Source: Paragordius varius (taxonomy: Eukaryota; Animalia; Nematomorpha). From it: DNA of 64,000 bases. Below are positions 537 to 62,700 of this stretch, piece by piece; the stretch's first letter is position 1, and the number at the start of each line of letters is the position of its first letter. The DNA lies in the NCBI GenBank assembly GCA_964247055.1, contig OZ176059.1:1550001-1614000 (forward strand), given 5' to 3'. Both the position numbers and the translations under genes were made by a program. A model generated the notes under the pieces. It was not told the DNA's origin and searched no databases. It saw only the letters and a list, made by a program, of their open reading frames with translations.

Positions 537-643
537 ATGGCCTAAAATTAAAAAATGATTATGCCTTTTGATTAGCACACATGCATTTGTAAATTTTTAA
601 ATTCACGATAAAGTCAAATTTTTTATTGGTGGTTTGTTTTTTT

Positions 644-1813
644 ATGAATGGTTGCCAAAATATTCGACAAAAAATTATTAATCCATTAAGTTGGATTAAA
701 AATTCAACTAAACACAATTATGCACTTATAATATTAAATCTTAACCTTTTTAATCATGAAGAAAATGAAAACTTGCTATGTCCATATTTTAAAGTTTATC
801 AAAATTTTATTCATTCGCTATGGAATCAAGCCAATATTACAATTATAGCCGATGGGGGAATTCGGTTATTACATAAAATTTGGAACAACGGAAAAAGAAA
901 ATTTATTCCAGATTACATAGTCGGAGATTTCGATTCTGCTCCATCAGACCTATTAACCCTGTTTCAAAATTTGGGCTCTCACATAATACATTATCCGGAT
1001 GAATATCAAACAGATTTCACAAAGTGCCTTAGGATTTTAGCTAAATTGTATCCAAATTTTTTGCAATTTTTTGATGATTCAAATTTTACACAAGTTGTGC
1101 CATCACTACCGGGTCAATCTCTCATAGGCAACACTAATTTTGCTGATAACACCGATGGATTTGACATTTACGTTCTAGGTGGCTTACAGGGACGTTTTGA
1201 TCACATAATGGGTGCAATTAATACGCTCCACATTTTTTATAATAAATATGCCCACTTCAAATCACCGTTGTTAAAGCATGAGAAACAACAGATGGATAGC
1301 TATAACTTAACCCAGGTACCAACCATTGTTTTGTATTCATCGGAAAGTCTTGCCTTTCTTATATATCCTAAAATTAAATATTACATTTATATACCGGCCA
1401 AGTTTTATACGCTTTCATGCGGTATCATTCCATTTTATGGATCTCCCTGTAACGGCATCCAAACACGTGGTCTACGTTGGAATTTGCAATCATCTGACAC
1501 ATTGGCTTGGGGTCACATGATTAGTACATCTAACCGTTACAATGTAACGGAAATGAGCGACATGCCAAATGATAGCCAAACGATTGTTTGTACAAAAAAT
1601 TTGAATAATGGTATTTTAGCCAACAATAAAACACACACCAAAGTAATTTGCTGTGAAAACGTTAATGAAAATTTATTATTTCAGGTGAAAAAAGACAATG
1701 CAACTTCCACTAATAGGGATGATGGGAAATATGTATATATATATTCGGACGTCATTCCAGTTATTTGGACGATGGAATTACCTGATGATTTGTTTACATG
1801 CAGTGAAAGTTAA
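644..1813 (+). CDS. TPK1: Thiamine pyrophosphokinase, intronless, ~389 aa (first ATG 644; the ORF track starts at an upstream TTG)
   Basis: Motifs ADGG, PDYIVGDFDS, QTDFTKCL, LGGLQGRFDHIMGAINTL, CGIIP, TRGLRWNL, LAWGHMISTSN. Confidence 0.93.
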   Translation: MNGCQNIRQKIINPLSWIKNSTKHNYALIILNLNLFNHEENENLLCPYFKVYQNFIHSLWNQANITIIADGGIRLLHKIWNNGKRKFIPDYIVGDFDSAPSDLLTLFQNLGSHIIHYPDEYQTDFTKCLRILAKLYPNFLQFFDDSNFTQVVPSLPGQSLIGNTNFADNTDGFDIYVLGGLQGRFDHIMGAINTLHIFYNKYAHFKSPLLKHEKQQMDSYNLTQVPTIVLYSSESLAFLIYPKIKYYIYIPAKFYTLSCGIIPFYGSPCNGIQTRGLRWNLQSSDTLAWGHMISTSNRYNVTEMSDMPNDSQTIVCTKNLNNGILANNKTHTKVICCENVNENLLFQVKKDNATSTNRDDGKYVYIYSDVIPVIWTMELPDDLFTCSES

Positions 1814-24542: not shown

Positions 24543-25634
24543 TTAATCTTCGACAAATTCATGTACGTCATAGAGTTTAGCAAAATTTTGGATAAAATAT
24601 GGTATAGTCATATCAACTGTAATATTTTTGCGTAAAATGTCCGTTATAGAAGTGACAACTAAGGAGTCTTCTAAATTTTGTCGTCCATTTTTGGGAGAGT
24701 CAAAACGATTCGTCTGCTGCAAAGAATTATTGATTTTGGTCAAACAATCTTGTTTTGTGGACTCAAATTCGCTTTTAAGATTATTTTTGTTTTCACTTAG
24801 TAATGAAGATGTTTGAAGATGTTGTGAAAGACCACATGGATCTATATACCTATACCATTTAAGGTTAACGTTACAATTTAGTGCGACACCATGAGAGGTG
24901 TAAAAATTGGCAAATCTTACACCAAGGGCCCCAACCTTTTGTGGTGACAAGGCTATAAAAGTTTCATTTAAACACTCCACCGGTTTTGAATCCGTTGTTA
25001 ATAATAACGAATCAAAATTTGTTTTAACTGTCATTTGTGAATTAGGAGTAATCAGCTGTTTAACTTCAGGTATATACCAGCTACCTGTTAGCGATGAGGG
25101 TGTTACTTTACTGTATATATAAGGCGTTTGTAAATCTCTACATGTTAATGTCATACTGTAAATTAAATTATTCACATGGATCCGAATAAAATTTAGACTA
25201 GTTTGATTAGCCTGTGATATCGTTTCGCTATCTTGGTAATTTGATGTTAACCGATCTAAGTATGGAGGACTGAATACAGAACGTAAATTTAAGATGGGAT
25301 ATGCAATTAATTGTCCTGGTCCATGGAATGTTATTAAGCCACCTCGATTAGTTTCGTAATATTCAGCCCCTTGTTCCATTAAAAATTTTTTGTTAACAGT
25401 ATAAATCGTGTCTTTAGCAGGTATATTTCCATCTTTATACTTTCGAATACCCACGGTATAAACAGGATTATGTTGTAAAAGTATAAGGATCCCTAATATT
25501 TTTTCATCCCGTTTGATTATGTCCAAAGCTCTTTCCTGTACTTTCAAACCTTCTGCATAACTTACTATTCCTAACTTCCAAAGTTTAAATATTCTTTTGC
25601 ATAAAAATAAAAAATAAAAGGCTTACCTTTTCAT
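24543..25634 (-). CDS. LIPT2: Octanoyltransferase LIPT2/LipB; 8-nt first exon (25634-25627), 33-nt intron, exon 2 at 25593-24543
   Basis: MKR/IFKLWKLGIVSYAEGLKVQE...LQHNPVYTVGIR...TNRGGLITFHGPGQLIAYPILNL...KVGALGVRF...TSHGVALNCNVNLKWYRYIDPCGL. Unspliced, the start reads ATG AAA AGG TAA, so the GTAAGC...AG intron is required. Confidence 0.9.
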
Positions 25635-25704: not shown

Positions 25705-28700
25705 ATGAAAGTAATAAATAAGCATGTTACGAATCCTATCAAGCAAAAATCTCATCTTTTCCATAAAAACCCAAAATTGTATGAAGAGGAAGTAATTAAA
25801 ATTATGATTAACCTATAAATTAGTTTTTACAGCAGTATAATCAGTTCATAATTTTATACAATGCCTTAAAATTGAACCCACATGCTGAGCATAAAGAATT
25901 TGCCAACTCTATTGTATCCTTGTCAAAGGTTAATGCCCATTATAATTGTAAGGTTGTACCATACTATAAAGATAAACAGGAGGAATTCAAAATGGTTTGC
26001 ATTGATAGTCTTAAAATTACTTCACATCCCGAAATGAAATTGGTTTTATTTTTATTGGTTTACATTTTTTTGTTTTAGATCCTTTGTAAAATTACAATGG
26101 GTTTAAGGCAACGCAAAATAATTGATACAATGACCTTTGCCCAACTTATGTTAGATTGCATACTTTCTTTACATCAAACAAGTTTCGATCAATCATCCAA
26201 TGATATAAAATTACAATCATCTGAATCTAATAACTCAATTACGCCTTCCACATCGCTTTACAAAAATGAATATAAGAAAAAAATGCGGAATTTAATTATA
26301 TCATTCCTGGTGAACGATATGAAAAATGAAAATTCACGTCATAAAAATCCCAACCTAAACTCCAAACTTCAAACCTTTTTATATCAAATTTATTCGGCAA
26401 ACACTTATGATTCCAGCAATAACACCAACAACAATAATAATAATTTTCGAATCGATGATGATTTTAAGGCTTTTGCTAAAACTGCCCTACTCATAACTAT
26501 GCGGCTTTACATCAAAGGGATTTGGAATGATGGGAAAACGGTTAATTTTTTGGCTCAAGCTTGTTTCTCCCGCATAGCTAATGTAAGTTAAATCCAAAAT
26601 ATTACCTTCTTTTTGGTTTCGTCACATACTGGTTATATTATTATGGAGATAAAACTGTAAAAGATTAAGACAAATATTTTTTTATATTAACACCACATTA
26701 TACATTTTTACAATTTCTAGCCTAGGTTATGTATGGATAAAATTAGAGTTTACAATAGTATGGCTTTCCTTTTAATAACTATTTGATTTTTAGTGTTTAT
26801 ATATTTAAGGTTATAATATTCTGTTTTGTTGTTAACACACTCAATTCATGTTGCATCAGTTATTTTGTATTTGAATATTATATATATATTTCGTGTTAAA
26901 GCTTATCTGTTGTTGAGAATAACGATTGTGTAACGTCTACGCAAATAAGGCATGCACACATAAAAAGAACTTGTGATATAATAGCCAGTCACTTTTTTAT
27001 TTTGGTTTTCTTTTTATCGCTCAACTCTATTTTAATATACCATATTGCTATACGTGAATAAATCAACTTTTCATTTGGTGCCGTGTTAGCTTTCAATGAG
27101 CCAAGCGTTGGACATTTCAAAACTGGTTTTGGAGCCTTTTAAGGAACCGATGAATTTTACGCAATATATACGTCACATCAGGAGAGTCATAAATTTCAAA
27201 AATATCGAATCCAATGACACCACAATGAAACGCACCTTTCTCGCTTTCGGCGGTATTCAAGTAATAATGAAAATCGAAACTTTAGCATACCCAAAACTCA
27301 TAGATGACATGGAATGGGAGGAAATTGCAACCTTGGCCACTCAGATATTATTTACCAATCAGCAGCCTATGGTTGATTCGAGTTGAATTCTACCGATTAA
27401 AAAAAATGCCAGATGAATCAGTCATGGATTTCCTGGAACGTCTGAAAGCAAAGTGTGAAGCCGGGAAATTTGAAGGGGATATTCAGTCAAAATTACGCGA
27501 TTTATTCCTGGTAGGTCTTGAAAATCCCAGAGTCGAACGCGAAATTCAATCCAAATATCCAGATGGCAAAAAGGACGGGGGTCCGGTAACCCTTCAAGCG
27601 ATTGTAGACATCGCTTATTCCTATGAATTAGAAGATAAAAAGGTTCACAACATCAGAGATAATAATGATATGAACAATAATAATACAAGTGAACTTCCTT
27701 CAAGTATCCAACCAGTTGTTAATGATAATAATACAATCAATCAAATAACCCGAAAGATATGTAGTAATTGTGGGTATCGACATGGTTCCGCCATTTGTCC
27801 GGCAAAAGGAAAACGGTGTTTCAATTGCGACAAATGGAATCATTTCAGCACAGTATGCAAGGCAACGTTCCGACGGCCGTCAATCCGCACCATGACTAGC
27901 CCGAACAACACCCCCCGGATTTAAGTATTAATAAATAATATACCAACAACGTTTATCTACGATACGGGCGCCGAGGTATCCGTTATTGACAAGCGCACTT
28001 GGGTAAATATTGGTCGACCTCGTTTGCTCCCAGGTCCAAATTTGCGAACCTACAATGATGGCCCGATAGAAGTACTCGGAAAATCGATAATTTCAGTGGT
28101 TTTGAACGAAGTGCGTGGTGACGCAAACTAACCCACCAAGTATTGCCCCAAACCCCTTGTTGGAAGCATCTGTTTCGATCAACAAGGGAAAACGGTCGTT
28201 AAATGGCATTAAAGCGGGGGGCCTGGTTAGCAAGCTTTTTGCTTTCGCGAATTCACTATCATCTGCCGGGGTCCACCGCCAAGGTGTATTCTTTCCACTT
28301 AACTTGTGTAAGGTTGCTAGGTGTGGGTGACAGTTTGGTATAAACCGCTCATGAAAATTTATTTAGCCTAAGAACGAACGTAGCTCAGTTTTGTTTGTAG
28401 GTGTCGGACAATTTTTAATGGCCTCTAATTTTTCATTGGACGGCTCAATACCTTGGTCAGAAATCACGTACCCCATGTATTTTACTCGTGAGATACCAAT
28501 TTGCAATTTGTCTCGGCGCAATCGTAATCCCGCCTCTTGTAACCTTCTAAATACTTCCCTTAATCTTTGATCATGTTCCTCCCTGGTAGCTCCGGAAATT
28601 AAGACATCATCCAGGTACACACAAATACCAGGTATGTCCTTTAAAAGATTGTCCATGCATCTTTGAAAGATCATAGGTGCTGAAGTTAATCCGAATGGAA

Positions 28701-31700
28701 GTCGTTGGTAAGCATAAAACCCTTTGTGAGTTGTGATGGTTACTAGCGTCTGTGACGCCTGGTCTATCGGAAATTGTAAGTAAGCATCTTTCAGGTCTAA
28801 AGTGGAAAAAATTATCCCATTTGCCACTTTGGTGGCCAACTCGTCAAAAGTAGGTATCAGATGGGAATCCTTTGCTAAATAACGGTTGATACTAATTCGG
28901 AAATCGGCACATATCCTAATTTCTCCATTTTCTTTAATTATATTTACTGTGGGAGAGGCCCATGTTATTAGGGTTTGGGTCGGATCGATAGGTCGGAGTA
29001 TTTTGAGTTTAATTAATCTATCAATTTCATTTTCTACTAAAGGTTTTAGAGTTAAAGGTACCCTACGACAAGGAAAAACTTTAGGTTTGGCCCCGGGGTC
29101 GATAAATAATTTTATTGGGGGCCCCTTGAAAGTACCTATTTCAAACCGTAATCAGAAAAAGATTTAATATACACGGTTTTGAAACGCAATTATTGAACGA
29201 ATTAAGGAAAAATATAGTAAAAATGTAAAACTAGATATTATATTGAAAAGTTGATTTATTCACGTATAGCAATATGGTATATTAAAATAGAGTTGAGCGA
29301 TAAAAAGAAAACCAAAATAAAAAAGTGAGTGGCTATTGTATCACAAGTTGTTTTATGTGTGCATGCCTTATTTGCGTAGACGTTACACAATCGTTATTCT
29401 CAACAACAGATAAGCTTTAACACGAAATATATATATAATATTCAAATACAAAATAACTGATGCACCATGAATTGAGTGTGTTAACAAAATAGAATATTAT
29501 AACCTTACATTACTTTCCCCCTAAGTTGACCACGGGGGCTGTCGTGTTCGTACATTATACCTATAAGTTTAAACGATCGGGAGGCTGCCGTCTTCTTAGC
29601 GGATATCTACGCTCGGGTAGGTCAGAAACCTCCTTTACCACGTCGGGTGTGGCCTCTACAGGCGTCAGCGATTCTGGGGCTACGTCTTGCCATGAGGTAG
29701 CAGGAGTTGGGGCATGGACTATTTGAGATTCCGAGGTGGGATGGAAGGTTTGTTCGGAGTGAGCTCCCTCCACATGACCCAGGACACTTTCGACGCTAGG
29801 ATATTTATGCTCTATTAAGGGATTAGTTTCGTATGAATTCCCTCCTGACCTACGTCGTAATTGATCTACATGTTTACGTTTTCGAATCCCTTCCTCATCT
29901 TGCACTTCATACGAGAGTAACCCCCTTCTCTCCAGAATGTGACCTGGCCCCCAGCCTAAGGCCATTTCATTTTTAATATAGACCGGATCGTCTTGTTGGA
30001 ATTCGCGTCTCGATTCATTTTCGTGCTCTATAAATTCGACAGGGGTTGTTTTTACCCAAGAGATAGGATTGTGTACACGCCGTCTTAGGAATATGGCGGA
30101 AGGCGTTTCTTTTAGCGAAGAATGCATGCTAGTGAATAAAGGACCGTGTTGATAGCTTCATATGCATGCATTTGTTGGGTCTTAGTAGCGGCATATTTCG
30201 TTTTTAATGTCTTTATTACTCTCTCTACTAGGCCGTTTGTTTTGGGGTGATAGGGTGCTGCACAGATGTGCTTTATATTCATCTGATTTAGGAGAGTCGT
30301 AAATTCTCTTGAAGTAAAAAACGTGGCATTATCGGTCACAATTTGGCGGGGAAAACCAAATCGTGCGATGTGTTTTTCCAGGCAATTTAAAACGCTTTGA
30401 CTCGTTATTGATTTAAGAAGATCTATCTCTACCCACCGTGAGGCGCTATCGATAGTCACTAACCAATAATATCCGTCCACCGGTCCAGCAACATCTATAT
30501 GTAACCTTTCCCATGTCAAAGTGTTAAAATTCCATCGATAGGGAAGATTTTCAGGTGCGTTAGGTCGATAGGTTTGGCAAGCCTCGCACCTTTCCACATA
30601 ATTCGCTAGATCGGTGTCTAATTCGGGCCAAAATACCGAACACCGGGCTTGGGCTTTCATTGTTTTTAGCCCGCTGTGTCCCGTATGCAGAAGTTGCAAT
30701 ATCGTTTCCTGCATCGCTTGTGGTATCACTAAGCGATCATTCAGGTATAACAGATTATAACAACACTCCAAGTCGTTTTTATGTTTTAAAAAAGGTTTCA
30801 GATCTTTGTAGATCCAACCGTTTGTCCTGAGAGCATTTTTAACTTTTGATAACCGTTGGTCAGTGATTGTTGCCTCTTCGACCACTTTCTTATTTACATC
30901 CAGCGTTTTTAGAGCCAAAAATCGTACCTGCTTGGTGGCCGCGTCATCTTCATCATCTGGTTGGCTATGCTCTATGGGAAGTCTCGACAACTCGTCGACT
31001 AAGTTTTCTTCCCCTTTCTTGTAAAATATTTCATACGCGTACCCGATGGTATTCGATATTCACCTGTCAGCAGTTTGCTATTATTAATGTTGTTCATGTC
31101 TCTCTTCCGCCCAAATACTGACACTAGCGGTTTATGATCTGTATATATCTCGACGGTCTTCCATATATAAAGTATTTAAATTTTTCTAGGGCAAACACTA
31201 TGGCCTTGGCCTCTTTTTCGATCGTGGAATAACCCTTTTCTGCTATTGAACAAGTTCGTGACGCGTAAAAAATTGGGCGTTTCCCCTGTGGGGTAAGTCG
31301 TAGACTTGTTAAACATCTTACAGTACTTCTTCATTATTGATACAAATGGGATGAACCAATTGAGCTTTTTAATGTCTAAGACGTGGGAAAGTAATCCCTG
31401 GTCTGTAGGGTTAGTCTCTGATCTTACTCCTACCGATGTGTCGGGAGGGGAAAAGTATCCACTTTGGGAAATTAATCTTTTATTTGTGTCTTTTTGAGCT
31501 TCACAAATGTAACTAATTCCTGGGGAATCCAAGAGCTTCTGAAAGATCAGGAGCTTTTCAGGATCTGGGTTTGACCAGTTGATTCCGTCAATTTTGACTG
31601 GATTGTCGTTGGTAATCGCTTCACCGTCTGGGTGTGCAAGTGGGTTCCAAGGGTATGGAAGTCTTCCATTGCTTAATCCTGATCTAGCTTTTTGGATGGC

Positions 31701-34700
31701 ACCCTTACATTAGCAGAATTTACTTCGGTGTTTTATTTTACATCAAAGTTTTAACTCTTCAAGATGAAGTCGGAGATCTATCAATAGATCAAGCCAAAAC
31801 CCTAGCCGCTTCTAAGAAGGCATGGAAATTTTCAAATCTCCCTGTCCCCGGACCATTAGTTACATTTTTTCAAGCTATAACCCCGTCCAAAGTGAACTTT
31901 GCTTCAGCAAATTTTGCCTACCCCAGAATTCCAGACAAAGTCGGACCACCAATTCTTGGTGACACCGAGACCGATAAGAAGGTGGAGTACTTGTTACCTC
32001 AACTAAACCTCCTTTACGGATTATTACGAGGATTCTCTAGCCAAAAAAGCTAGAACAGGATTAAGCAATGGAAGACTTCCATACCCTTGGAACCCACTTG
32101 CACACCCAGACGGTGAAGCGATTACCAACGACAATCCAGTCAAAATTGACGGAATCAACTGGTCAAACCCAGAACCTGAAAAGCTCCTGATCCTTCAGAA
32201 GCTCTTGGATTCCCCAGGAATTAGTTACATTTGTGAAGCTCAAAACGACACAAATAAAAGATTTTCCCAAAATGGATACTTTTCCCCTCCCGACACATCG
32301 GTAGGAGTAAGATCAGAGACTAACCCTACAGACCAGGGATTACTTTCCCACGTCTTAGACATTAAAAAGCTCAATTGGTTCATACCATTTGTATCAATAA
32401 TGAAGAAGTACTGTAAGATGTTTAACAAGTCTACGACTTACCCCACAGGGGAAACGCCCAATTTTTTACGCGTCACAAACTTGTTCAATAGCAGAAAAGG
32501 GTTATTCCACGATCGAAAAAGAGGTCAAGGCCATAGTGTTTGCCCTAGAAAAATTTAAATACTTTATATATGGAAGACCGTTCGAGATATATACAGATCA
32601 TAAACCGCTAGTGTCAGTATTTGGGCGGAAGAGAGACATGAACAACATTAATAATAGCAAACTGCTGACAGGTGAATATCGAATACCATCGGGTACGCGT
32701 ATGAAATATTTTACAAGAAAGGGGAAGAAAACTTAGTCGACGAGTTGTCGAGACTTCCCATAGAGCATAGCCAACCAGATGATGAAGATGACGCGGCCAC
32801 CAAGCAGGTACGATTTTTGGCTCTAAAAACGCTGGATGTAAATAAGAAAGTGGTCGAAGAGGCAACAATCACTGACCAACGGTTATCAAAAGTTAAAAAT
32901 GCTCTCAGGACAAACGGTTGGATCTACAAAGATCTGAAACCTTTTTTAAAACATAAAAACGACTTGGAGTGTTGTTATAATCTGTTATACCTGAATGATC
33001 GCTTAGTGATACCACAAGCGATGCAGGAAACGATATTGCAACTTCTGCATACGGGACACAGCGGGCTAAAAACAATGAAAGCCCAAGCCCGGTGTTCGGT
33101 ATTTTGGCCCGAATTAGACACCGATCTAGCGAATTATGTGGAAAGGTGCGAGGCTTGCCAAACCTATCGACCTAACGCACCTGAAAATCTTCCCTATCGA
33201 TGGAATTTTAACACTTTGACATGGGAAAGGTTACATATAGATGTTGCTGGACCGGTGGACGGATATTATTGGTTAGTGACTATCGATAGCGCCTCACGGT
33301 GGGTAGAGATAGATCTTCTTAAATCAATAACGAGTCAAAGCGTTTTAAATTGCCTGGAAAAACACATCGCACGATTTGGTTTTCCCCGCCAAATTGTGAC
33401 CGATAATGCCACGTTTTTTACTTCAAGAGAATTTACGACTCTCCTAAATCAGATGAATATAAAGCACATCTGTGCAGCACCCTATCACCCCAAAACAAAC
33501 GGCCTAGTAGAGAGAGTAATAAAGACATTAAAAACGAAATATGCCGCTACTAAGACCCAACAAATGCATGCATATGAAGCTATCAACACGGTCCTTTATT
33601 CACTAGCATGCATTCTTCGCTAAAAGAAACGCCTTCCGCCATATTCCTAAGACGGCGTGTACACAATCCTATCTCTTGGGTAAAAACAACCCCTGTCGAA
33701 TTTATAGAGCACGAAAATGAATCGAGACGCGAATTCCAACAAGACGATCCGGTCTATATTAAAAATGAAATGGCCTTAGGCTGGGGGCCAGGTCACATTC
33801 TGGAGAGAAGGGGGTTACTCTCGTATGAAGTGCAAGATGAGGAAGGGATTCGAAAACGTAAACATGTAGATCAATTACGACGTAGGTCAGGAGGGAATTC
33901 ATACGAAACTAATCCCTTAATAGAGCATAAATATCCTAGCGTCGAAAGTGTCCTGGGTCATGTGGAGGGAGCTCACTCCGAACAAACCTTCCATCCCACC
34001 TCGGAATCTCAAATAGTCCATGCCCCAACTCCTGCTACCTCATGGCAAGACGTAGCCCCAGAATCGCTGACGCCTGTAGAGGCCACACCCGACGTGGTAA
34101 AGGAGGTTTCTGACCTACCCGAGCGTAGATATCCGCTAAGAAGACGGCAGCCTCCCGATCGTTTAAACTTATAGGTATAATGTACGAACACGACAGCCCC
34201 CGTGGTCAACTTAGGGGGAAAGTAATGTAAGGTTATAATATTCTATTTTGTTAACACACTCAATTCATGGTGCATCAGTTATTTTGTATTTGAATATTAT
34301 ATATATATTTCGTGTTAAAGCTTATCTGTTGTTGAGAATAACGATTGTGTAACGTCTACGCAAATAAGGCATGCACACATAAAAAGAACTTGTGATATAA
34401 TAGCCAGTCACTTTTTTATTTTGGTTTTCTTTTTATCGCTCAACTCTATTTTAATATACCATATTGCTATACGTGAATAAATCAACTTTTCAATATAATA
34501 TCTAGTTTTACATTTTTTTACTATATTTTTCCTTAATTCGTTCAATAATTGCGTTTCTAAACCGTGTATATTAAATCTTTTTCTGATTACGGTTTGAAAA
34601 TGTGGGGTTTGTTTGTTGTTTTATGCAGATAAAATAAACTTTGTCAAGTTACATAAATTTAACATTAATAATATCTAATTGAGTGGGTAACGACGAGAGT

Positions 34701-37305
34701 TTGTAATGTAAATGATGTTAGAATCGTCGTAAAATAACGCAAAAATAAAAATAATTTTATTAATTCTCAAATTTTCGCCATAGGCATCATCAGGAGATTA
34801 GTTATTTAATTTTTATTTTCTTATATTATATATATTTTTCTTAACTAATCTCATGATGATGCCTATGGCGAAAATTTGAGAATTAATAAAATTATTTTTA
34901 TTTTTGCGTTATTTTACGACGATTCTAACATCATTAATAATATCTATTATTTGGGTTTGGAAAAATCGGTATTTCACAAAATTCTTGTGTATTATCTCTT
35001 TTTTGCATAGTTTTTTTTAATTTTGTCTTCATATTTTCGAAAATATATATGTAGATTTTTTTCAAACTTAGATTATGTCAATGGCAATACGATTTTTCTT
35101 GAATCCAAACGATTTCAAAGTTGATGAAGACAATGATCCCAGCTGCTCAGCGACAAAAGTTTTATTCATAAATTATTTACAGTATTTATGTTTAATTGAT
35201 ATACCATTTACAGTTCAAATTCACCCTTGAACAATTCAAATTCACCCTCGAACAATTCAAATTCACCCTAAAAATAAATTATGTGTTTTCGAACTAACAT
35301 AACTCATTATTTATATAAAATATATCTTTATGGCATAATTTATTATTTTTTCAGTATTATTTTAATTTAAAACAAAATTTTATTTTTTAAAAAATAGATT
35401 AAAATATACGTAATTTTTAATCTTAAAAAACATGTTATTTATTTGAGGGTGAATTTGAATTGTTCGAGGGTGAATTTGAATTGTTCAAGGGTGAATTTGA
35501 ATTGTTTAAAGGTGAATTTGAATTGTTTAAGGGTGAATTTGAAGTGTATTTGGTATATATAGTGGAATGTTAATAACCATCACGCCTATAAACTAATAAT
35601 TACATCGCCGGTTTGTTTAACACTAACAAGTTAAATGAATTTGCGGATTTATTAATTACATAATTTGAAGGGTCAAATTTGAAAACTTATGAGGCCTTCT
35701 AATAAATATTTTTAAATTAAAACATTTTTTAATCATATGATTGTTAAAAATTTACTACGAATCAAACAATATAACTACCATTTATTTATGCACTTTCTTT
35801 GTTAATTTATTTCAAGATTGTTTAAAAGGAATATCAAAATAATTTATGTTTCGTAAATAGCGCACCTTATTTTTAATGTTATAAAATTTTAAAATTTTTG
35901 GAGGCTTAAATTGGATTTATTACCCCTGAATTAGATCATGTTGATTATTTACCGGTTTTTAAGTTTAAAATGTGTTAATTTTTAAGTTGTGTCATTATTT
36001 TAAGTCAGTTATGTTTCACGTCGCCACAAGCATACTTTATGGGTCCAAAAACAATAAGGAAATTATATATAATCATTTTATACTCTTTTTTACTAAAAGA
36101 ATCGAAATATTAGTAAAATAAACTATAAAATTAATTAAAAATTATTCAATTTTAATATTATATTCCCAAAACATGGGTCATGATAACCATATTGAGTTAT
36201 ATATATTTCTCCTATGTCATTAGGGTAGGGGGGGGAGCATACATTTTATTTCCAAACATGAAATATTTTAAAATGGTTAAAAATTATATTTTTTTCGTAG
36301 TATTTAATTATTTTTTGATTCATATTTTATCTGGTGAAAAAAAACTACCATATTGTAACAAAGAATTTACTTTAAATATAATTTTTATCGTTTTAAATAT
36401 AAAATTTTTTTTTAATTATCAAAAAATTATTTATTTTAGTCTAATGATGGCACACTAAATGCCGCCGATATTATGAAACGCAGTAAAATAACGAAAAAAA
36501 CTCGAAGTCGAAAGAAACAAACCGCGCGACAATTGAAAGCGCTCGTAAAACGCACCACTGCGACAGTGGATAAGGAAGGAATTACAATGTTTAATAGTAA
36601 TACACAAAAACTGATTGATTACCTTTATGATTCTCAAGGTTGTTTTTTTGCATATAAAACTTAACTTGACAAATTTATTTAAAATGTGCTTGATTAATAA
36701 TTCGATTGATTTGAGTTGATAAAACAGTGTGTGTGGAAGAATTGTATAATGAATTTAAAAAAATTGTCTTAAAAACCTTATTAGATAAGACTACTTTGAG
36801 GGAAATGGCGATTGATTAATATGCATGATGATTATTTTGACAAGAAATATTAGTATAGTTATGATTTAAAATGCAAAAATTGCGATTTTTATATCAGTTA
36901 ATATAATTGAAAATTACTTTAACATCGCTGCATTAATCCAAATTACAAAACAGTCTAATATTAAAACCCTTTGTAATAATACTTATTAATAACCAATCGA
37001 ATATCTTAAAATAAATTGTTTAAAAAATTATCTATCGTCGTAATTTACGGAAAAATTATATCATATTTTTTTATTTGTGTATAGAATTTGCTGAAAAATT
37101 ATTCCTACAATTACAACATCGCAATGAAGGGTTTGAGATACGGAGTATTAGTATAGATTTAGTTTCACGTATTATTGGTCTACATAAGGTAATAAATAAA
37201 TATATATATTTATAATGGTCAAATTACATATAATATTGTTTCCATTTTTTTAAATCGTTTTAGCATACCTGAGTGTTTAAAATTCTAATTAACACTTTAT
37301 TATTA

Positions 37306-40900: not shown

Positions 40901-43900
40901 TGAATTTAGCATCCGCTTTTCTATGTTCATTAGTTTTTTCTCGATTAAATGTGTCATTGGCCATGTCTCGCTTCCATACAGGAGTATGGGACATATGCCA
41001 AATTTGTATATCAAGCCTTTGTTTTTTGCAGATATATGTTTATTTTTGAGCACTATTTTAAGTTGATGGTATTTTACCCAAACCTGTTGGGATCTACATT
41101 GAACTGTCTGGTTTATTCCACATAGGCAATGTATGACATCGCCCAAGTATTTAAAATTATTAACAACTTCGATTTTGGCATCTGACATATAAAGGTAATT
41201 TAGAAAAGTAGGTGAGTGATTTATAACTTTATTTTTGAATTTAATGTAAAAAACTGGTTTTCTTCCTTTTTTTTCGACAGAAATAAGAATGTGGTTATGG
41301 CTTCACGTAGCCTTATAAATTTGTTTCGAACCGCTAACCCCGGGATGTTGCTTAAAGCCGATAGAGGGCGTGTTAATCGAGATTGGAAAAATGTACAGCC
41401 TGCTCCATATGGTACAGCAAATACAGTGGTAATTTTAATTTTCTATATTACTACAAACTTTTATTTAAAAGTTTAAACTTTAAAAACTTTTTTAATTTGA
41501 AATTGGAACCAATTTGAGGCGGGAAAGTTTTTTCAAAATGATTTTTTTTCAATGGTTAACTACCATGAAGGAGGATTTATTTCAATGTTTATACCATATG
41601 TGTGATTTAATTGATGACAGTTATTTCTATTTTTTAGAATTTAAACAATTTTTTTACACACACTTGAAAAGAGGTTTAATGGTACCAAAATAATAAAATT
41701 AGGATATCAAAAAGCAAAAGTTATTATATATATTTAAAATAATCACACCATTTTATAATTTTCGCCTCTAAACAATTATCTCTTAATATATTGTACACAG
41801 CTGAGAAAATCATTCATTTTATTATCTATTTAGTTTTTTTTACACAAACTATTCATTTTATTGGGGTAATTTTTATTACTCGTAGAATTATATTTATTTA
41901 AAAATTTGAGTATAATTATTACACAATAAAATGTTTTTATTTTATTTTAAACCTTAATTGTAACTTTTAAAGTTAAATTACACGGACACTTGAAAAAAGG
42001 CTAATTGTAATAAACAGCAGGCGTTTTTGATTAATATTTTTACAGTATGCATTTTAATGTCTGTTAAGTAATTTTATTGCCTGCCAAATAACATAAATGG
42101 TTTATCAAAAGCGTAAAATACTGACCCACGAAATTATTTCGTAGTACACATATGAAAGAGGATTGACGTGAGAATTAACATAGGCTTTAATTTGATGGAT
42201 ATTTTGTAATGTTAAATGAGAATATTAAAGCAATTTATGTTAACATTTGTAATATTGTTGTTACGTATTTAGATGCGGAATTTTGTGGGTTTTTATCTTT
42301 GATAAATTAATAAATAGTAAAATACGTATTTTAAGATATTTTATGTTTATTATTCCTAAATTTAATAATAAATATTTTTAAACATGCTAAATACCTGTAT
42401 TAATTAATCTTGGTATTATAATTTTATATAGTTGTTATTACTAATTAAAAAAACACAGGTAAATATATATTTGTGAAAATTTAAGTAGATTTTTGTCTTT
42501 TATGTTTTGCATTATTTTTATCAGGTAAAAATTGCGGTTTTTAATAAATTTCCTAAAAATTTAGTTTTTTTTTGTTTTTTAGGTTTTGCATTGTTAGTTG
42601 TAATTAATTACTACATATTTTGGACATTATAATAAATAGAGGTAAAAATTGCGGTTTTTAATAAATTTACTAAAAATTTAGTTTTTTAGGTTTTGCATTG
42701 TTAATTGTTAACTACTACATATTTTGGACATTTTAATAATTACAGGTAAAAATTGCGGTTTTTAACAAATTTAGTAAAAATTTTGTTTTTTTGCTTTTTT
42801 AGGTTTTGCAAATTGTAATTAACTACTACATATTTTGGACATTTTAATAATTACAGGTAAAAATTGCGGTTTTTAACAAATTCAGTAAAAATTTAGTTTT
42901 TTTTGTTTTTTTAGGTTTTGCATTGTTAATTGTAACTAACTACTGCATATTTTGGACATTTTAATAATTACAGGTAAAAATTGCGGTTTTTAACAAATTC
43001 AGTAAAAATTTAGTTTTTTTTTGTTTTTTTAGGTTTTGCATTGTTAATTGTAACTAACTACTACATATTTTGGACATTATAATAAATAGAGGTAAAAATT
43101 GCGGTTTTTAATAAATTTACTAAAAATTTAGTTTTTTAGGTTTTGCATTGTTAATTGTAATTAACTACTACATATTTTGGAAATTTTAATAAATACAGGT
43201 GAAAATGGCGGTTTTTAACAAATTTCAAATGTAACATTTTTTGTATCTTGTATCATTGTTATTTAATTAATTACTAAATATTTTGGACATTTAAAAAACT
43301 TGTGTAAATGGCGGTTTTTATTAAATTAGTAAATTTTATTTTTTGTTCAACCTTGCTAATTTATTTATCACTATATATTTGTGATACATTGATATATACA
43401 GGTAAAAATTACTATGACTTGCGGTTTTTTGAATTTTTTAAAATATTTTTTTTCTATTGATAACTTATATAATAAATATAGTTAACATATCTGAGTAGGT
43501 AAAAATGCATGTTACGGTTTTATGTTTGACATTTTATTTTCCATCAACTATTTATATTTTAACAAACAACTTATGTCACCAAAGATTGAAAATAAGATCA
43601 AGATATATAAAACATCTTTTAAAGTATCTGAATATCGCCAAATATAAATAAATTTATTTAAATTATAAATGTATAATTATACAAAATATTCATATTATGT
43701 TTGAAATTAACATTCTTCTTATTGATATTAATACAGGTAATTTGTTTATATAAATGATGTACGATGCGGTGTGCGTTCATGATGATATGGATTGAAGAAT
43801 AGTATAAGATGTAGATAATCCTGAAAATTTTAATCACCATCATTTTTTAGGTAGATTCTATCACCTAAAATATAAGATAATTGATATATTAGAAAATTGA

Positions 43901-46900
43901 TACCTGGATTAAATATTGGGGGAAACATTCATAGTTTGAAAGACAACTCAAAAGGTTGACTTGGCTTTTTAACAACTAAATTTGCAAAAAAATATTTTCT
44001 TCATGATAAAAAATTCAAAAATGATACTTTATGTTTTTTTCGTTCTACCATCATAAACTATAAATATGAAAATGCTTATATGATTTCACCATATCAATGA
44101 CGTCAAATAGAAAATAGAAACAAATAATTTTTTTCAAAAGCTTGGAATGCAACAGCACTCCAAAAGCAGGCAACACTAACATTGTTTGCTTTGGTGAAGA
44201 ATAATTTTTTATATTTATAGTTTAGGATGGTAAAACGAAAACGTAAAATAAGGTATCATTTTTGAATTTTTATCATGAAGAAAATATTTTTTTGCAAATT
44301 TAGTTGTTAAAAAGCCAAGTCAACCTTTTGAGTTCCCTTTCAAACTATGAATGTTTCCCCCAATATTTAATCCAGGTATCAATTTTCTAATATATCAATT
44401 ATCTTATATTTTAGGTGATAGAATCTACCTAAAAAATGATGGTGATTAAAATTTTCAGGATTATCTACATCTTATACTATTCTTCAATCCATATGATCAT
44501 CATGAACGCACACCACATCGTACATCATTTATATAAACAAATTACCTGTATTAATATCAATAAGAAGAATGTTAATTTCAAACAATGAATATTTTGTATA
44601 ATTATACATTTATAATTTAAAAAAATTTATTTATATTTGGCGATATTCAGATACTTTAAAAAAGGTTTTATATATCTTGATCTTATTTACAATCTTTGGT
44701 GACATAAGTTGTTTGTTAAAATATAAATAGTTGATGGAAAATAAAATGTCAAACATAAAACCGTAACATGCATTTTTACCTACTCAGATATGTTAACTAT
44801 ATTTATTATATAAGTTATCAATGTAAAAAAAATATTTTAAAAAATTCAAAAAACCGCAAGTCATAGTAATTTTTACCTGTATATATCAATGTATCACAAA
44901 TATATAGTGATAAATAAATTAGCAAGGTTGAACAAAAAATAAAATTTACTAATTTAATAAAAACCGCAATTTACACAAGTTTTTTAAATGTCCAAAATAT
45001 TTAGTAATTAATTAAATAACAATGATACAAGATACAAAAAATGTTACATTTGAAATTTGTTAAAAACCTCCATTTTCACCTGTATTTATTAAAATTTCCA
45101 AATATGTAGTAATTAATTACAATTAACAATATTAAATAAAAAAACAAGAAAATATTAAATTTTATTAAATATAAAAACAACCTCATTTTTTACCTTTATT
45201 AATTGAAATGTCCAAAATTAATTAATTACAATTAACAATGAAAATCCTCTAAAACAAAAAAATTAATTTTTTACTAAATTTTGTAATTATTATAATGTCC
45301 AAAATATGCAGTAGTTAGTTACAATTAACAATGCAAAACCTAAAAAAACAAAAAAAACTAAATTTTTACTGAATTTGTTAAAAACCGCAATTTTTACCTG
45401 TAATTATTAAAATGTCCAAAATATATAGTAGTTAATTACAATTAACAATGCAAAACCTAAAAAAACAAAAAAAACTAAATTTTTACTAAATTTGTTAAAA
45501 ACCGCAATTTTTACCTGTAATTATTAAAATGTCCAAAATATGTAGTAGTTAATTACAATTTGCAAAACCTAAAAAAGCAAAAAAACAAAATTTTTACTAA
45601 ATTTGTTAAAAACCGCAATTTTTACCTGTAATTATTAAAATGTCCAAAATATGTAGTAGTTAACAATTAACAATGCAAAACCTAAAAAACTAAATTTTTA
45701 GTAAATTTATTAAAAACCGCAATTTTTACCTCTATTTATTATAATGTCCAAAATATGTAGTAATTAATTACAACTAACAATGCAAAACCTAAAAAACAAA
45801 AAAAAACTAAATTTTTAGGAAATTTATTAAAAACCGCAATTTTTACCTGATAAAAATAATGCAAAACATAAAAGACAAAAATCTACTTAAATTTTCACAA
45901 ATATATATTTACCTGTGTTTTTTTAATTAGTAATAACAACTATATAAAATTATAATACCAAGATTAATTAATACAGGTATTTAGCATGTTTAAAAATATT
46001 TATTATTAAATTTAGGAATAATAAACATAAAATATCTTAAAATACGTATTTTACTATTTATTAATTTATCAAAGATAAAAACCCACAAAATTCCGCATCT
46101 AAATACGTAACAACAATATTACAAATGTTAACATAAATTGCTTTAATATTCTCATTTAACATTACAAAATATCCATCAAATTAAAGCCTATGTTAATTCT
46201 CACGTCAATCCTCTTTCATATGTGTACTACGAAATAATTTCGTGGGTCAGTATTTTACGCTTTTGATAAACCATTTATGTTATTTGGCAGGCAATAAAAT
46301 TACTTAACAGACATTAAAATGCATACTGTAGTTGCAAGCATGGCACACCATCCAGTTTGATTTCAAGATTCCTGTATAATTTATATTTAAAACTTAGCTT
46401 TTAAGTTATACATTTTTTAAAATATTTAGTATATCAAAAAATAAATGCATCTTTTAAAGTCATTTAAACGGGACTTCATTAAAGCTAATTGTAATAAACG
46501 GTGTTTTCCAAACAAAAATTAGTTGTAAGCGTACCCATCTGAGAAGAAATGGCTCACTTGAAGTTTTTTTAGCCAAAAATTTAGGTTTATCATAAAAATA
46601 TTTCGAAAACCTTAGTATAATAAAATTTAATTTTTCTATAAACATTAGTTTTTTTAGCATATTTACCTTTTTCTAAATCATTCACTTATAATTCTATGAT
46701 TTTAGAATGAAGATCCATTGGAAGGTTTCACCCAATTAGCATCGGAAAGAATGTTAACACAAGATGAATTGGATAGGATAACGCATTTAAGGAAAAAACA
46801 AAATAGCAACAACACTAATAATAGCTCTAAAGAAAATAATCAAGATTCTAACCGGGTGGAAAAAAATACAGACCAAAACTTTGAAATTGAAAGCGAAGAC

Positions 46901-49115
46901 GAAAGGTTTGGTTTTAGCTTACAATAAATTTACGGCGAAAATTATAAAGACACGTGTTTAAAAGGCTGTTTATTATAATTTAAGCTTTGATTTTTTTTTC
47001 TATAAAATACTTATCGGTTTTAGGTACCATGAAATAAGGCATAATTCTGGTCAAACGTACATTTTTTTATATTACACAATTGTAATATGGTTAAAAAAAT
47101 ATGCAAGTATGGTTTTTTGTATCATCTCAATTTTTTACTGTATTTATGAAGCTTTTAAACGTCGTCATTTCCTAAGAGGATGGTATATTTTTACTACATT
47201 TAGATGGGACTATTGTATATTCATATACAGTAATATATACCATTTACAATTCAAATTCACCCTCAAAATAAATTATCTGTTTTTGGGCTAATATAACTTA
47301 TTATCAATATGGAATTTATCTTTATGGCTTATTTTAATTACAAACAAAACTCCTTTTTTTAGAAATATGAAAAAAATATAGATAAATTAATCTTAAAAAA
47401 ATATATGATAGATTTTAGAGTGAATTTGTATTGTGTAAGGGTGAATATGAAGTGTAAATGGTATAATATGGTATTTTTATATTTAGAGAGATAAACTATA
47501 ATGTTTCAGATATGAAATAAGGCAATTAATTTAAATTTTAAAATAATTGAGCTTAAATTATGTGCGTATCCAGTTAGTTTTTATCCTGGGATATGAAACA
47601 TAGATAAATATTAGAAATGTGTTTAATAATTTAATAAAATTTATATTAGTTGAAATAATGATTATATACAATTATCATTAAATAAAAATAAAATGTTCCT
47701 GATGTTTTTTTGTGTTTTCCAAATTTAATGTAATATAATTTATAAAAAATTTGGAACTTAATTTATTTATTTTTACTTATAATAAAAAATAAATATTTAT
47801 ATTATTTATACAATTTTTTTCATAGCGACACCGATCCAATGAATGAAACCATGATTGATGATAACCAAAGCGAGGACGACAATAATAGTGATATAAATAA
47901 TTGTGACAATTCTTCCAGTTGTTTCTCAGAAGATCTTTGTTCTGAAAATAGTAGTATTGATTATAGCGAAAAAGACCACAATAATGAAATAAACTCATGC
48001 AATGATAGGTCAGAACAACAGTTCAAATTAACTTTAATAAATTCTAATGCTGAAAATGTTAGTTTAAGTTCTGACACCTCAGAATCTAACTCAGACTCAG
48101 ATGATGAAGAAAATAATGGCGGTCTCCCGACCCTTGGTGACATTGAACGCATATATAAAGTCCCTAAAATGACAAAAGAAGCTAGGATACAAGCCTTAAA
48201 GGATAGTCGACATGAAGGTAATACGATTTTGCATTTGTTTAACTTAAATTTTTATAAATTATACTCATTTTTAAAGGGTTTTTAAAAAAAATTAAAAAGT
48301 ATAAAAAATTTGTTTTATTTTGCAACGCGTTTGGGTAAATTTTTTATTATTGTTGAGAATTGATGATTGTACTGTTTATATAATTATATATGGATTTTCT
48401 TTCCTTTATTATGAGTTTTTTTTCGATAAATAGGGCTTATAAAATAATTAGCTCATACTCATTCATAATTCAATATTTTGGAAATATGTTTGTTAACTTA
48501 TCGAATATATAATAATAATAATAAAACTAAGGTTATACCCCGTATTATATGTTTACAAAAAGCATTTAAAATAATTTTATAAGTTTTAATTTTCATCTCT
48601 ATTTATGGATTTTTATTATTAATTCACACTAATGCATATCTGTTTATATTTACATAAATAAACCAGTATTAATTAGCTTGACATATACAGGGTAAAAAAC
48701 TAACTTTTAAACAGTTTATAAAAAATTGTAAAGTTACATTTTTGCATTTCATTTGTGTGTTTAAGATCGCTTCATCAAACGACGACAAATGGATCAAAAA
48801 CGTAGGAAAGATCGGAAAAAGGGTAGTAATAATAATAGTCTAGCTAATTTGCAAAGTATCAACTCCATGTCATCCGTTATAACGGGCCAACCCAATTCGA
48901 TTAAAAAGCAAAATCCATCAAGTGCGGGTGGTGGTAGAGCTATAACTAATCGTGATAAAGCCAAACGCAAACCATTCATGATGATCCGGTCCAAACTTAT
49001 GAGACGGAAAAAGCAAAAAAAACGGACCGCCGGTAGCGGAAATAATAGGGGCGGACGGAAACGCAATCAAGGTAAACACAATAAAAAACCGGCTAGAAAA
49101 GCGTTTAGAGCCTAG
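25705..49115 (+). CDS. SDAD1: Protein SDA1 homolog (60S ribosome biogenesis), 12 exons, ~857 aa
   Basis: Exons 25705-25791 (in-frame ATGs also at 25651 and 25663), 25824-26042, 26079-26582, 35072-35158, 36440-36638, 37085-37188, 37944-38060, 40015-40181, 41281-41428, 46706-46905, 47826-48217, 48766-49115 (2574 nt, phases consistent). Motifs [79 protein letters not shown]...[29 protein letters not shown]. Confidence 0.92.
26804..27073 (+). repeat. 5' LTR
   Basis: Near-identical to 34226-34492 (a few substitutions and one 3-bp indel). Confidence 0.9.
27076..27085 (+). other. Primer-binding site, probably tRNA-His
   Basis: TGGTGCCGTG 2 nt after the LTR end; complementary to the 3' end of tRNA-His as recalled. 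Confidence 0.7.
27096..28110 (+). pseudogene. Gypsy gag (zinc knuckle) and aspartic protease; one frameshift and one in-frame stop
   Basis: ORFs 27096-27386 and 27304-27924 overlap by a frameshift. CSNCGYRH...[14 protein letters not shown]. The protease ([12 protein letters not shown], 27952 onward) is in the same frame after TAA 27922-27924. Confidence 0.88.
28115..29139 (-). pseudogene. Inverted Gypsy reverse transcriptase plus RNase H N-terminus
   Basis: Minus strand reads [11 protein letters not shown]...WASP...IRICADFR...[12 protein letters not shown]...YQRLPFG...VYLDDVLI...ELRSFLG...[17 protein letters not shown], opposite in orientation to gag-PR. Confidence 0.92.
29139..31695 (-). 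repeat. Left arm of 2.56-kb inverted duplication (host flank, LTR 29244-29509, PPT, integrase, RNase H C-terminus, viral 3' part)
   Basis: Reverse complement of 32041-34599; ORFs 30112-30990 and 29561-30127 give the same proteins as 32745-33623 and 33608-34174. Confidence 0.95.
31694..32436 (+). other. Endogenous viral element: partitivirus-like capsid protein fragment (~245 aa, one +1 frameshift in an A-run at ~32043-32048)
   Basis: Translation: [23 protein letters not shown]...[18 protein letters not shown]...[36 protein letters not shown]...[10 protein letters not shown]...[21 protein letters not shown]. Three spaced motifs match alpha/betapartitivirus capsids as I recall them (WHP..SRLY..VLFY..L; IPGPL..FF; WF..V..IM.KY...F..S). 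It is not Gypsy sequence. Confidence 0.7.
32437..34174 (+). pseudogene. Gypsy RNase H C-terminus plus integrase (HHCC, DDE), frameshifted
   Basis: [13 protein letters not shown]...[19 protein letters not shown]...YTDHKPL; LHTGH...CEAC; HIDVAGP...VTDNA...[11 protein letters not shown]. Confidence 0.92.
34213..34492 (+). repeat. Polypurine tract (34213-34225) and 3' LTR (34226-34492)
   Basis: AGGGGGAAAGTAA then TGTAAGG...TTTTCA, followed by the TSD ATATA. Confidence 0.9.
34711..34935. repeat. 225-bp near-perfect palindrome (94-bp arms, 37-nt loop)
   Basis: 34711-34804 pairs with 34842-34935; the first 82 bp are perfect, then one mismatch. Confidence 0.9.
35204..35553. mobile_element. MITE family C, complete
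   Basis: TA|CCATTTACAGTTC... with three left and four right 21-bp units ...TTTGG|TA. Confidence 0.85.
38240..39523. mobile_element. Cluster of family D MITEs
   Basis: Paired inverted 21-bp GGACCAACTTGAAG arrays at ~38240/38780 and ~38890/39325, plus an extra half at ~39330-39523. Confidence 0.7.
39533..39721. mobile_element. MITE family B
   Basis: TA|CAGTAGGCATT...GCATACTG|TA, with internal CACTATAGC/TAGAGGGCAATTTG inverted repeats. Confidence 0.7.
40560..41190 (-). mobile_element. RTE-clade LINE 3' remnant
   Basis: [11 protein letters not shown]...LLYGSETW...KRML (ORF 40823-41188), then [10 protein letters not shown] near 40730. Confidence 0.8.
42043..46328. mobile_element. 4.3-kb foldback-type element: ~2-kb inverted arms with internal ~110-120-bp tandem repeats and a ~143-bp spacer
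   Basis: TA|CAGTATGCATTTTAATG...CATTAAAATGCATACTG|TA. Arms 42043-44067 and 44211-46328. AGGTAAAAATTGCGGTTTTT units at ~42520-43330 are mirrored at ~44960-45850. No ORF. Confidence 0.9.
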
Positions 49116-62120: not shown

Positions 62121-62700
62121 TGCTACTTACCCTTGGGAAAAATAAATAACCAATTATGATCTATATATTTTTAGCATAGTTTATTTTTCTATCAGATATT
62201 AATTTGTAAATATTATAATTTTTTTGATTTCATATATAAATTGTTAATTTTATGCCTTCAAGTAAATTAAAAAAATACAAATTAAACTTATAACTGAAAA
62301 ATTTAATTTCGTTAGATGCCATTTTCGTCAAAGATGGCAATAAGTAATATAATAACTAAAATTATTAAAGCATTAACTAATTTATATTTTTACAGGTTAT
62401 TAATTGCAAATAAATAAATTTATAACCAAATATCATTTCAAATAAGTATTTATCTTTTTCATCATTTTTTTGTTGAGAACCCGAAATGGATTCTAGCATA
62501 AAATCAATAGTTATATGTATAAAACGTTTACAAACAGTAGGTAGCTAGCTAGCTTATCATTTAAAAACGCTTTTATCTTAATTGGGTTAGATATCACCCA
62601 GGGAGGGGGTATTTATATATATATAAAATAACCCAATTTTCGTTAGACCGTAACACATTAGATTTATTCTAATTTATCAAAAAATTTATTTCATGCAATT

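What the first reader, a model, noticed from the sequence alone, without database searches (positions are those of the whole stretch)
31694..32436. Partitivirus-like capsid gene fragment captured inside a Gypsy retrotransposon
About 740 bp of non-retroelement coding sequence, mostly invisible in the ORF track (no start codon, one frameshift), translates to ~245 aa. It carries three correctly ordered motifs I recall from alpha/betapartitivirus capsids: [34 protein letters not shown] and [20 protein letters not shown]. Partitiviruses are dsRNA viruses with no DNA stage or integrase. Recombination of non-retroviral RNA with LTR retrotransposons during reverse transcription is the established route to such endogenous viral elements, but a copy with both junctions inside pol, both LTRs and the TSD preserved is an unusually direct record. 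It also points to a probably undescribed virus of this host or its symbionts.
Basis: partly seen in the sequence, partly recalled or inferred. Interest (0 to 1): 0.95.

Follow-up and report, generated by a model that had tools for sequence, protein, structure and literature searches.

The report
Partitivirus capsid fossil folded into palindrome
A 746-base piece of a partitivirus coat-protein gene is joined into the RNase H region of a dead Gypsy retrotransposon, likely captured by reverse transcription, and an inverted duplication has turned half of it into a long palindrome that would make double-stranded RNA if the surrounding predicted intron of an animal-like host gene is transcribed.

Summary
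The identity is confirmed. 31694-32439 encodes residues ~128-378 of an alphapartitivirus-like capsid, in two frames. Piece 1 has 114 hits at E<=1e-3, including Lotus ILR2 and a cluster holding a named partitivirus capsid. A profile of these hits finds piece 2 collinearly (E 2.6e-8), and the folded best hit matches partitivirus capsids.

The 'intact record' is wrong. Only the 3' junction (virus|RNase H, 32439|32440) is in pol. The virus 5' end abuts a 2.55-kb inverted copy of its own 3' half plus RH-C, integrase, LTR and 107 bp of flank. RT/RH-N is inverted against the protease. Both LTRs and an ATATA target-site duplication survive. Contigs from two studies bridge the fold-back junction, so it is not an assembly artefact.

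Public runs hold further copies, including a diverged relative with mostly synonymous changes, which points to repeated capture of an undescribed virus lineage.

Best mechanism: a retrotransposon-RT template switch at RNase H, then fold-back repair of the free viral end (0.6). Partitivirus EVEs and LTR-captured EVEs are known kinds. The new twist is a ~395-bp viral stem inside a predicted SDA1 intron; small-RNA output is untested.

The parts
31694..32439 (+). Alphapartitivirus-like capsid gene fragment (aa ~128-378 of ~500), one frameshift near 32043-32048, same sense as the element
31694..32043 (+). Unduplicated 350-nt viral spacer (loop of the palindrome)
   Evidence: X2 contig depth 162 vs 283-305 for the duplicated part
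29139..31693 (-). Inverted duplicate of 32044-34599: viral 3' half (31295-31693), RH-C, integrase, LTR (29244-29509), 105-107 bp of 3' genomic flank
   Evidence: junction 31693|31694 bridged in X1 and X2
26804..27073 (+). 5' LTR (TT...CA), preceded by ATATA (26799-26803), followed by a tRNA-type primer-binding site
   Evidence: flank|LTR junction bridged by an X2 contig
27090..28138 (+). gag (frameshifted, two Cys/His knuckles) and aspartyl protease, truncated at 28138
28139..29138 (-). RT and N-terminal half of RNase H, inverted in place; 133 nt of the PR-RT linker missing
   Evidence: Pfam RVT_1 and RT_RNaseH_2; best PDB hit Ty3 RT; intact X6 contig
32440..34225 (+). C-terminal RNase H, integrase (H2C2, rve), polypurine tract; resumes 10 nt after the point where RH-N stops in intact copies
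34226..34492 (+). 3' LTR (TG...CA), followed by ATATA (34493-34497)
26079..26591 (+). SDA1 exon upstream of the element, with a GTAAGT donor-like site at 26583-26588; later SDA1-like pieces at 47746-49115 place the element in a predicted intron
   Evidence: (downstream hits below curated cut-off)

Best explanation
This is a decayed piece of an alphapartitivirus-like capsid gene joined into the RNase H of a Gypsy element, likely made when the element's reverse transcriptase jumped from its own RNA onto viral capsid mRNA, and likely rearranged afterwards by fold-back repair of the viral end. Shown: the capsid identity; the same-sense virus|RH-C junction with 10 nt of RNase H lost; the inverted RT block; the 2.55-kb inverted duplicate with a 350-nt spacer; the LTRs and target-site duplication. 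Inferred: the template switch; that the hybrid cDNA either integrated whole (double switch) or, more likely, was a one-switch product with a free viral end written into a resident copy through its RH-integrase-LTR homology; that this free end snapped back on 2-3 nt of microhomology and copied itself through to the flank before joining the flipped RT fragment. The locus cannot make capsid or transpose. Its only plausible activity is hairpin RNA from intron read-through (predicted, untested).
For: Identity. Junction: intact family contigs in 4 of 4 runs join RH-N (28139) to RH-C (31294, equivalent to 32440) through 10 nt and start matching the stretch exactly at 32440. The virus is co-oriented with the element. 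The family is abundant (X2 contig depth ~8,300 vs 177 at the flank junction; a rough measure). Fold-back signature: single-copy spacer and short inverted microhomology, as described for inverted duplications in PMC3907307 (abstract). The duplicate contains genomic flank, so it was copied after insertion at this locus. Precedent: same-orientation gypsy/EVE pairs (10.1101/127498, passages); virus-Ty3 hybrids without homology (PMC6797480, passages); cDNA inserting at pre-existing copies by Rad52 annealing (PMC11042837, abstract).
Against: No RH-N|virus junction was seen in the window or in the 5 runs laid. The virus|RH-C junction has only 28 pol-side letters in its one public contig, under the tool's 31-letter rule. 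X1 holds a 226-nt piece of the same viral sequence between AT-rich flanks unlike this element, and X4 holds a close copy with a different 5' neighbour, so viral cDNA may enter this genome without the element. Partitivirus RdRps are reported to have RT activity of their own (PMC8557412, abstract). Timing is unresolved: the arms differ 0 in 1625 nt across integrase but 6 substitutions in 396 nt of the viral part, and X2 lacks some of these differences.
Confidence: 0.6

Rival explanations
1. Break-repair capture: a resident, intact element broke in RNase H (and in the PR-RT linker). A free viral cDNA, made by any RT or by the viral RdRp, was ligated to the RH-C end. Inversion and fold-back duplication belong to the same repair event, and an RH-N|virus junction never existed.
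For: Explains without coincidence why the RT-block breakpoint lies within 10 nt of the capture site. The J1 and J2 junctions are blunt. A viral fragment sits in AT-rich DNA in X1. RdRp RT activity is reported (PMC8557412 abstract; PMC12027680 section 3.4).
Against: Landing in an LTR element, in its sense, is unlikely for a random break (inference from depth ratios). The 0/1625-nt identity of the integrase arms suggests duplication later than capture unless gene conversion homogenised them.
Confidence: 0.25
2. Secondary copy: the viral piece was copied from an older EVE elsewhere in the genome (templated insertion, or a co-packaged EVE transcript), not from live virus.
For: X4 has a ~98.4% identical copy with another 5' neighbour. 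5 of the 6 listed changes are non-synonymous or a stop, plus indels, i.e. neutral decay. X1 has a second near-identical piece.
Against: Independent captures of one persistent virus followed by decay give the same pattern. A more distant copy shows 7 of 8 listed changes synonymous, so separate captures from evolving virus did occur.
Confidence: 0.12
3. The palindrome is an amplification or assembly chimera, or the viral piece is contaminating RNA or symbiont sequence.
For: A second large fold-back lies at 42041-46330. The junctions at 28138|28139 and 29138|29139 were not seen bridged in the part of table 8 shown. Run types are not on record.
Against: 31693|31694 is bridged by contigs from two studies (X1: 149/138 nt each side; X2: 42/392). 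The duplicated part has about twice the depth of the spacer in X2, and spacer depth matches the flank (162 vs 177). At most one of the two may be the source sample.
Confidence: 0.03

Closest known systems
Partitivirus CP-like sequences (PCLS; ILR2/AtPCLS1 in plants; CP-LPs in insects, a nematode and a mite) - PMC3136472, PMC12027680
   Same: Same capsid family; Lotus ILR2 is the third-best hit (E 4.8e-13); nuclear, decayed or partial.
   Different: Animal-like host; internal 250-codon pseudogene rather than a retained gene; base-resolved junction inside a Gypsy RNase H; half of it duplicated as a palindrome.
eBxnv-1 nodavirus EVE in a Bel/Pao LTR element of Bursaphelenchus xylophilus (PMC5177903)
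   Same: Single-copy non-retroviral RNA virus sequence between two LTRs with PBS, PPT and pol remnants; copy-choice RT capture proposed.
   Different: That is a +ssRNA virus RdRp, expressed, in Bel/Pao. This is a dsRNA-virus capsid in Ty3/gypsy, broken, with only one pol junction and a fold-back duplication.
Aedes aegypti vDNA/EVE-Ty3/gypsy hybrids (PMC6797480; 10.1101/127498)
   Same: Co-oriented virus-gypsy joins without homology; small-RNA immunity as the proposed use.
   Different: Those are mainly flavi-, rhabdo- and chuvirus EVEs in piRNA clusters. Here the predicted output is a hairpin from a housekeeping-gene intron.
Intronic inverted-repeat pararetroviral integrations of tomato (PMC9868043)
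   Same: Rearranged endogenous virus as an inverted repeat in an intron.
   Different: There it is a plant DNA pararetrovirus with siRNA output shown. Here it is a non-retroviral dsRNA virus, an animal-like host, and no expression data.
Dicephalospora rufocornea partitivirus 1 (Alphapartitivirus, PMC10751708)
   Same: Named member of the capsid family (E 1.3e-102 to the profile); 28% identical to piece 1 over 113 aa.
   Different: Distant; piece 2 does not align pairwise. The closest relatives are unnamed ~507-aa proteins (27-37% identity).

Membership tests
Partitiviridae capsid-derived sequence | Sequence homology to partitivirus coat proteins | tested here: met
   114 hits at E<=1e-3; named links ILR2, Leucocybe candicans partitivirus 1 capsid (cluster mate), DicePV1 coat protein
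Partitiviridae capsid-derived sequence | Partitivirus capsid fold | tested here: met
   Tested on the best hit P0001, not on the insert: pLDDT 87.4; BFVD top E 3e-38; top PDB hits 8phh, 7ncr, 3es5
Partitiviridae capsid-derived sequence | Relatives encoded singly on ~1.4-2.4 kb segments | tested here: met
   26 of 29 hits looked up lie on contigs <=2.1 kb; L001 is one ORF on 1767 nt with an interrupted A-tail
Alphapartitivirus (genus) | RdRp phylogeny of the cognate virus | not testable with these tools
   No RdRp segment available. Capsid trees put both pieces on long branches among alpha-like capsids with weak support
Ty3/gypsy LTR retrotransposon | LTRs with TG...CA, PBS, PPT and target-site duplication | tested here: met
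   the 5' LTR begins TT; chance match of two local 5-mers is 0.004
Ty3/gypsy LTR retrotransposon | gag-PR-RT-RH-INT order | tested here: met
   Met in the intact family contig (X6; domains); disrupted by inversion in this copy
Mag clade of Ty3/gypsy | RT phylogeny with Mag references | not tested
   Resemblance (two gag knuckles, no env) is recalled only
Retrotransposon-captured EVE (double template switch, integrated whole) | Both virus ends joined to element sequence | tested here: not met
   3' end yes; the 5' end joins the inverted duplicate
Retrotransposon-captured EVE (double template switch, integrated whole) | Virus co-oriented with the element and element continuity kept at the junction | tested here: met
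   Same sense; only 10 nt of RNase H missing
Fold-back inverted duplication | Single-copy spacer between inverted arms, with short inverted microhomology | tested here: met
   350-nt spacer at half the depth of the arms in X2; 2-3 nt microhomology, near chance level
Hairpin-RNA / siRNA-producing EVE locus | Transcription through both arms and small RNAs from the stem | not testable with these tools
   Stem predicted (-806 kcal/mol); no small-RNA data on hand

The most novel reading that the evidence does not exclude
The fold-back turned a captured dsRNA-virus capsid fragment into a natural intron-hairpin RNAi locus. SDA1 read-through would yield a ~2.5-kb stem whose inner ~395 bp are viral, giving heritable siRNA defence against both a persistent, undescribed partitivirus of this animal lineage and its most active Gypsy family. 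This would explain why an unstable palindrome is shared by unrelated samples.
Probability: 0.13. Interest if true: 0.75.

Novelty: new variant of a known kind. Interest (0 to 1): 0.45.

Why it matters
It is solid evidence that an alphapartitivirus-like lineage, a group known mostly from fungi and plants, reached the germline of this animal-like host more than once: near-identical and ~86%-identical copies exist in public runs. It gives a base-resolved virus|pol junction for the debated route of non-retroviral endogenisation, and shows that an apparently tidy LTR capture can hide a one-sided junction. The palindrome makes one open question directly testable with a single small-RNA library: whether EVEs act through hairpin siRNA rather than piRNA in animals. 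Without that result it is one more EVE of a known kind.

Tried and rejected
No hit:
- Pfam on both pieces, on 15 hits (one sub-cut-off FlgA_N) and on all 72 alignment members (one weak SSAP_Sak). Pfam's partitivirus capsid models did not fire.
- PDB by sequence.
- Word-index protein search of each piece against longer proteins.
- ESM Atlas on piece 1. On P0001 it gave partitivirus-type capsid clusters at 0.96-0.97 but with low recognition.
- IMG/VR.

Other dead ends:
- No whole genome is held, so copy number and other EVE loci could not be mapped.
- No RNA holder listed.
- The host taxon was not identified. The TPK1 exact look-up failed. TPK1 scores 107-113 bits against three 247-277-aa PDB entries and 54-63 against three longer ones; that these are mammalian vs yeast is recalled. 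A literature probe for nematomorph partitiviruses was a guess from memory and gave nothing relevant.
- One JGI hit is labelled 'glutaredoxin-related protein'; treated as a mislabel given.
- Earlier scan notes held nothing on this locus.

Rejected:
- Cellular or transposon origin of the insert.
- Sequencing error as the cause of the frameshift.
- Use of arm divergence as a clock, because it is mosaic and sample-dependent.
- Composition as evidence: insert GC 0.415-0.418 equals the element's 0.40-0.42, against 0.33 for host genes.
Full report
1. OBSERVATION. The three motifs are present in order. The insert reads as two stop-free frames, 31694-32050 (119 aa) and 32049-32438 (130 aa), broken once in an A-run near 32043-32048. 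Contigs of X1 and X2 cross the break with no gap.

2. IDENTITY. phmmer of piece 1 against 1.84 billion representatives gave 114 hits at E<=1e-3, 8 of them at <=1e-10, mostly 480-530 aa with the match starting near residue 110-150. I looked up 29 of the 114. 26 lie on contigs of 2.1 kb or less. One is Lotus japonicus ILR2 (third-best hit), one clusters with the Leucocybe candicans partitivirus 1 capsid, one is a Notodromas monacha protein and one carries a discordant 'glutaredoxin-related' label; the rest are hypothetical or unnamed. A profile of 75 full-length hits, chosen by piece 1 alone, scanned against 1376 six-frame segments of the window returned 3: piece 1 (E 1e-34), piece 2 (2.3e-8; best domain 2.6e-8) and its inverted copy (6.7e-9). 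They are collinear at profile positions 115-231 and 249-344. The best of 500 shuffles of piece 2 scored 2.6 bits against 31.2. Against P0001 the pieces cover residues 129-243 and 252-378. The 72-sequence alignment retrieves the DicePV1 coat protein at E 1.3e-102 (1 named among 9 hits), an Alphapartitivirus according to PMC10751708 (passages). The model of P0001, not of the insert, has pLDDT 87.4. In BFVD it has 52 matches at E<=0.001; 33 of the 50 listed are named, all viral coat/capsid proteins or Galbut Orf1. Its top PDB hits are partitivirus particles 8phh (E 5e-4), 7ncr and 3es5. Identity to the best pairwise hits is 27-44%, far below the 80% capsid species line quoted in PMC10751708, so the virus is undescribed within these databases. 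Trees on 44 and 43 rows place both pieces on long branches with weak support; the genus rests on capsid relatives only.

3. ANATOMY. From left to right: ATATA; 5' LTR 26804-27073; PBS; gag; protease to 28138 (+); RT and RH-N 29138 to 28139 (-); an inverted duplicate 31693 to 29139 of 32044-34599; virus 31694-32439 (+); RH-C from 32440; integrase; PPT; 3' LTR 34226-34492; ATATA. Intact family members in 4 of 4 runs join RH-N to RH-C through 10 nt, and an X6 contig gives the colinear gag-PR-(133 nt)-RT-RH-INT order. The virus therefore sits exactly at a break in RNase H, in the element's sense, but only its 3' end touches pol. Its 5' end meets the inverted copy of its own 3' half across a 350-nt spacer. 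That junction is bridged by contigs in X1 (study P1) and X2 (study P2). In X2 the spacer contig has depth 162, the duplicated parts 283 and 305, the flank-LTR contig 177 and the intact RH contig 8307 (a rough measure). One of these runs may be the source sample. The virus|RH-C junction occurs in both arms of the window; its public contig has only 28 pol-side letters, so it does not count as bridged. The junctions at 28138 and 29138 were not seen bridged in the rows shown (1372 rows were hidden). The element lies between SDA1 pieces on the same strand, so in a predicted intron; the downstream Pfam hits are below cut-off and 41216-41473 gave no SDA1 hit. The host looks animal by TPK1 (organisms of those entries recalled) and was not identified further.

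4. OTHER COPIES. Seven runs from 4 studies hold the stretch or part of it, 4 of them half its words or more; I laid 5. X1 has an extra 226-nt piece between AT-rich loose ends. X4 has a ~98.4% copy with a different 5' neighbour, in which 5 of 6 listed changes are non-synonymous or a stop. X2 and X4 have an ~86% copy with 7 of 8 listed changes synonymous; only 8 of its 14-17 differences were listed. In X4 that copy leaves the window's sequence exactly at 32439, which marks the junction from the viral side. The first pattern is pseudogene decay and the second is divergence under selection, so related viruses were captured more than once (inference).

5. MECHANISM. Co-orientation and a join inside pol fit copy-choice by the element's RT, as proposed or shown elsewhere (PMC5177903, PMC6797480, 10.1101/127498; passages read). 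A one-switch hybrid cDNA with a free viral end, annealed into a resident copy (pathway in PMC11042837, abstract), removes it: the free end snaps back and copies virus, RH-C, integrase, LTR and 107 bp of flank, then joins the flipped RT fragment. The spacer-plus-microhomology signature matches PMC3907307 (abstract). I give the RT route 0.6 (about 0.35 one switch, 0.25 double switch), break capture of free viral cDNA 0.25, a secondary copy from an older EVE 0.12 and artefact 0.03. These are judgements, not computed values. Confidence in the capsid identity is about 0.98.

6. CONSEQUENCE. The element is dead, and the viral piece lacks a start and both ends. If the intron is read through, 31295-32439 folds as a ~395-bp stem (-806 kcal/mol; expected for any such palindrome, no shuffle control), extended by about 2.1 kb of element sequence. 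Intronic inverted-repeat viral integrations feed siRNAs in tomato (PMC9868043, abstract). Nothing here shows expression, and internal LTR polyadenylation could cut the transcript.

7. NOVELTY. Partitivirus capsid EVEs are known in plants, insects, a nematode and a mite (PMC3136472 passages; PMC12027680 abstract and sections 2.6, 3.4), and LTR-captured RNA-virus EVEs are known. In the listings of four searches (titles and abstract starts, only the papers cited here opened) I saw no partitivirus piece inside a Gypsy pol. In the listing I saw no hairpin-forming non-retroviral EVE in an animal. The library lacks most subscription papers, I opened no supplements, and EVE tables in supplements may hold such cases.

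Noticed in passing
window 42041-46330: A second large fold-back palindrome (arms 996 + 518 + 242 nt, 98-99%, 238-nt centre) built of ~104-118-nt AT-rich tandem units, also between SDA1-like exons.
   Followed up: no
runs X2 and X4, matching window 32319-32439: A more distant copy of the capsid sequence (14 differences in 105 nt; 17 in 121). 7 of the 8 listed changes are synonymous. In X4 it runs on past 32439 into non-pol sequence. Probably a second capture from a related virus.
   Followed up: partly
run X1, matching window 31809-32034: A 226-nt near-identical viral piece with AT-rich loose ends on both sides, i.e. a second locus without this element; low depth.
   Followed up: partly
run X4, matching window 31698-32047: A close copy (4 differences in 247 nt) with a different 5' neighbour and two alleles carrying indels and a stop.
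   Followed up: partly
window 29139-31693 vs 32044-34599: Arm divergence is mosaic: 0/1625 nt across integrase but ~1-2% at both ends, and X2 lacks some of the differences. This suggests gene conversion between the arms, or consensus errors.
   Followed up: partly
window 34711-34935 and many 21-nt tandem units (e.g. 35206-35560): A MITE-like 225-nt palindrome of very high depth in public runs, and an abundant 21-nt-unit repeat family.
   Followed up: no
window 593-1813 (+), 24543-25622 (-), 62662-63756 (+): Host genes: thiamine pyrophosphokinase and a lipoyl/octanoyl transferase with long insertions, and an unassigned membrane-protein-like ORF.
   Followed up: partly
P0035 (CAG0921761.1): An 895-aa protein from Notodromas monacha on a 32.8-kb contig carries two matches to the same capsid family; possibly another animal EVE.
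   Followed up: no
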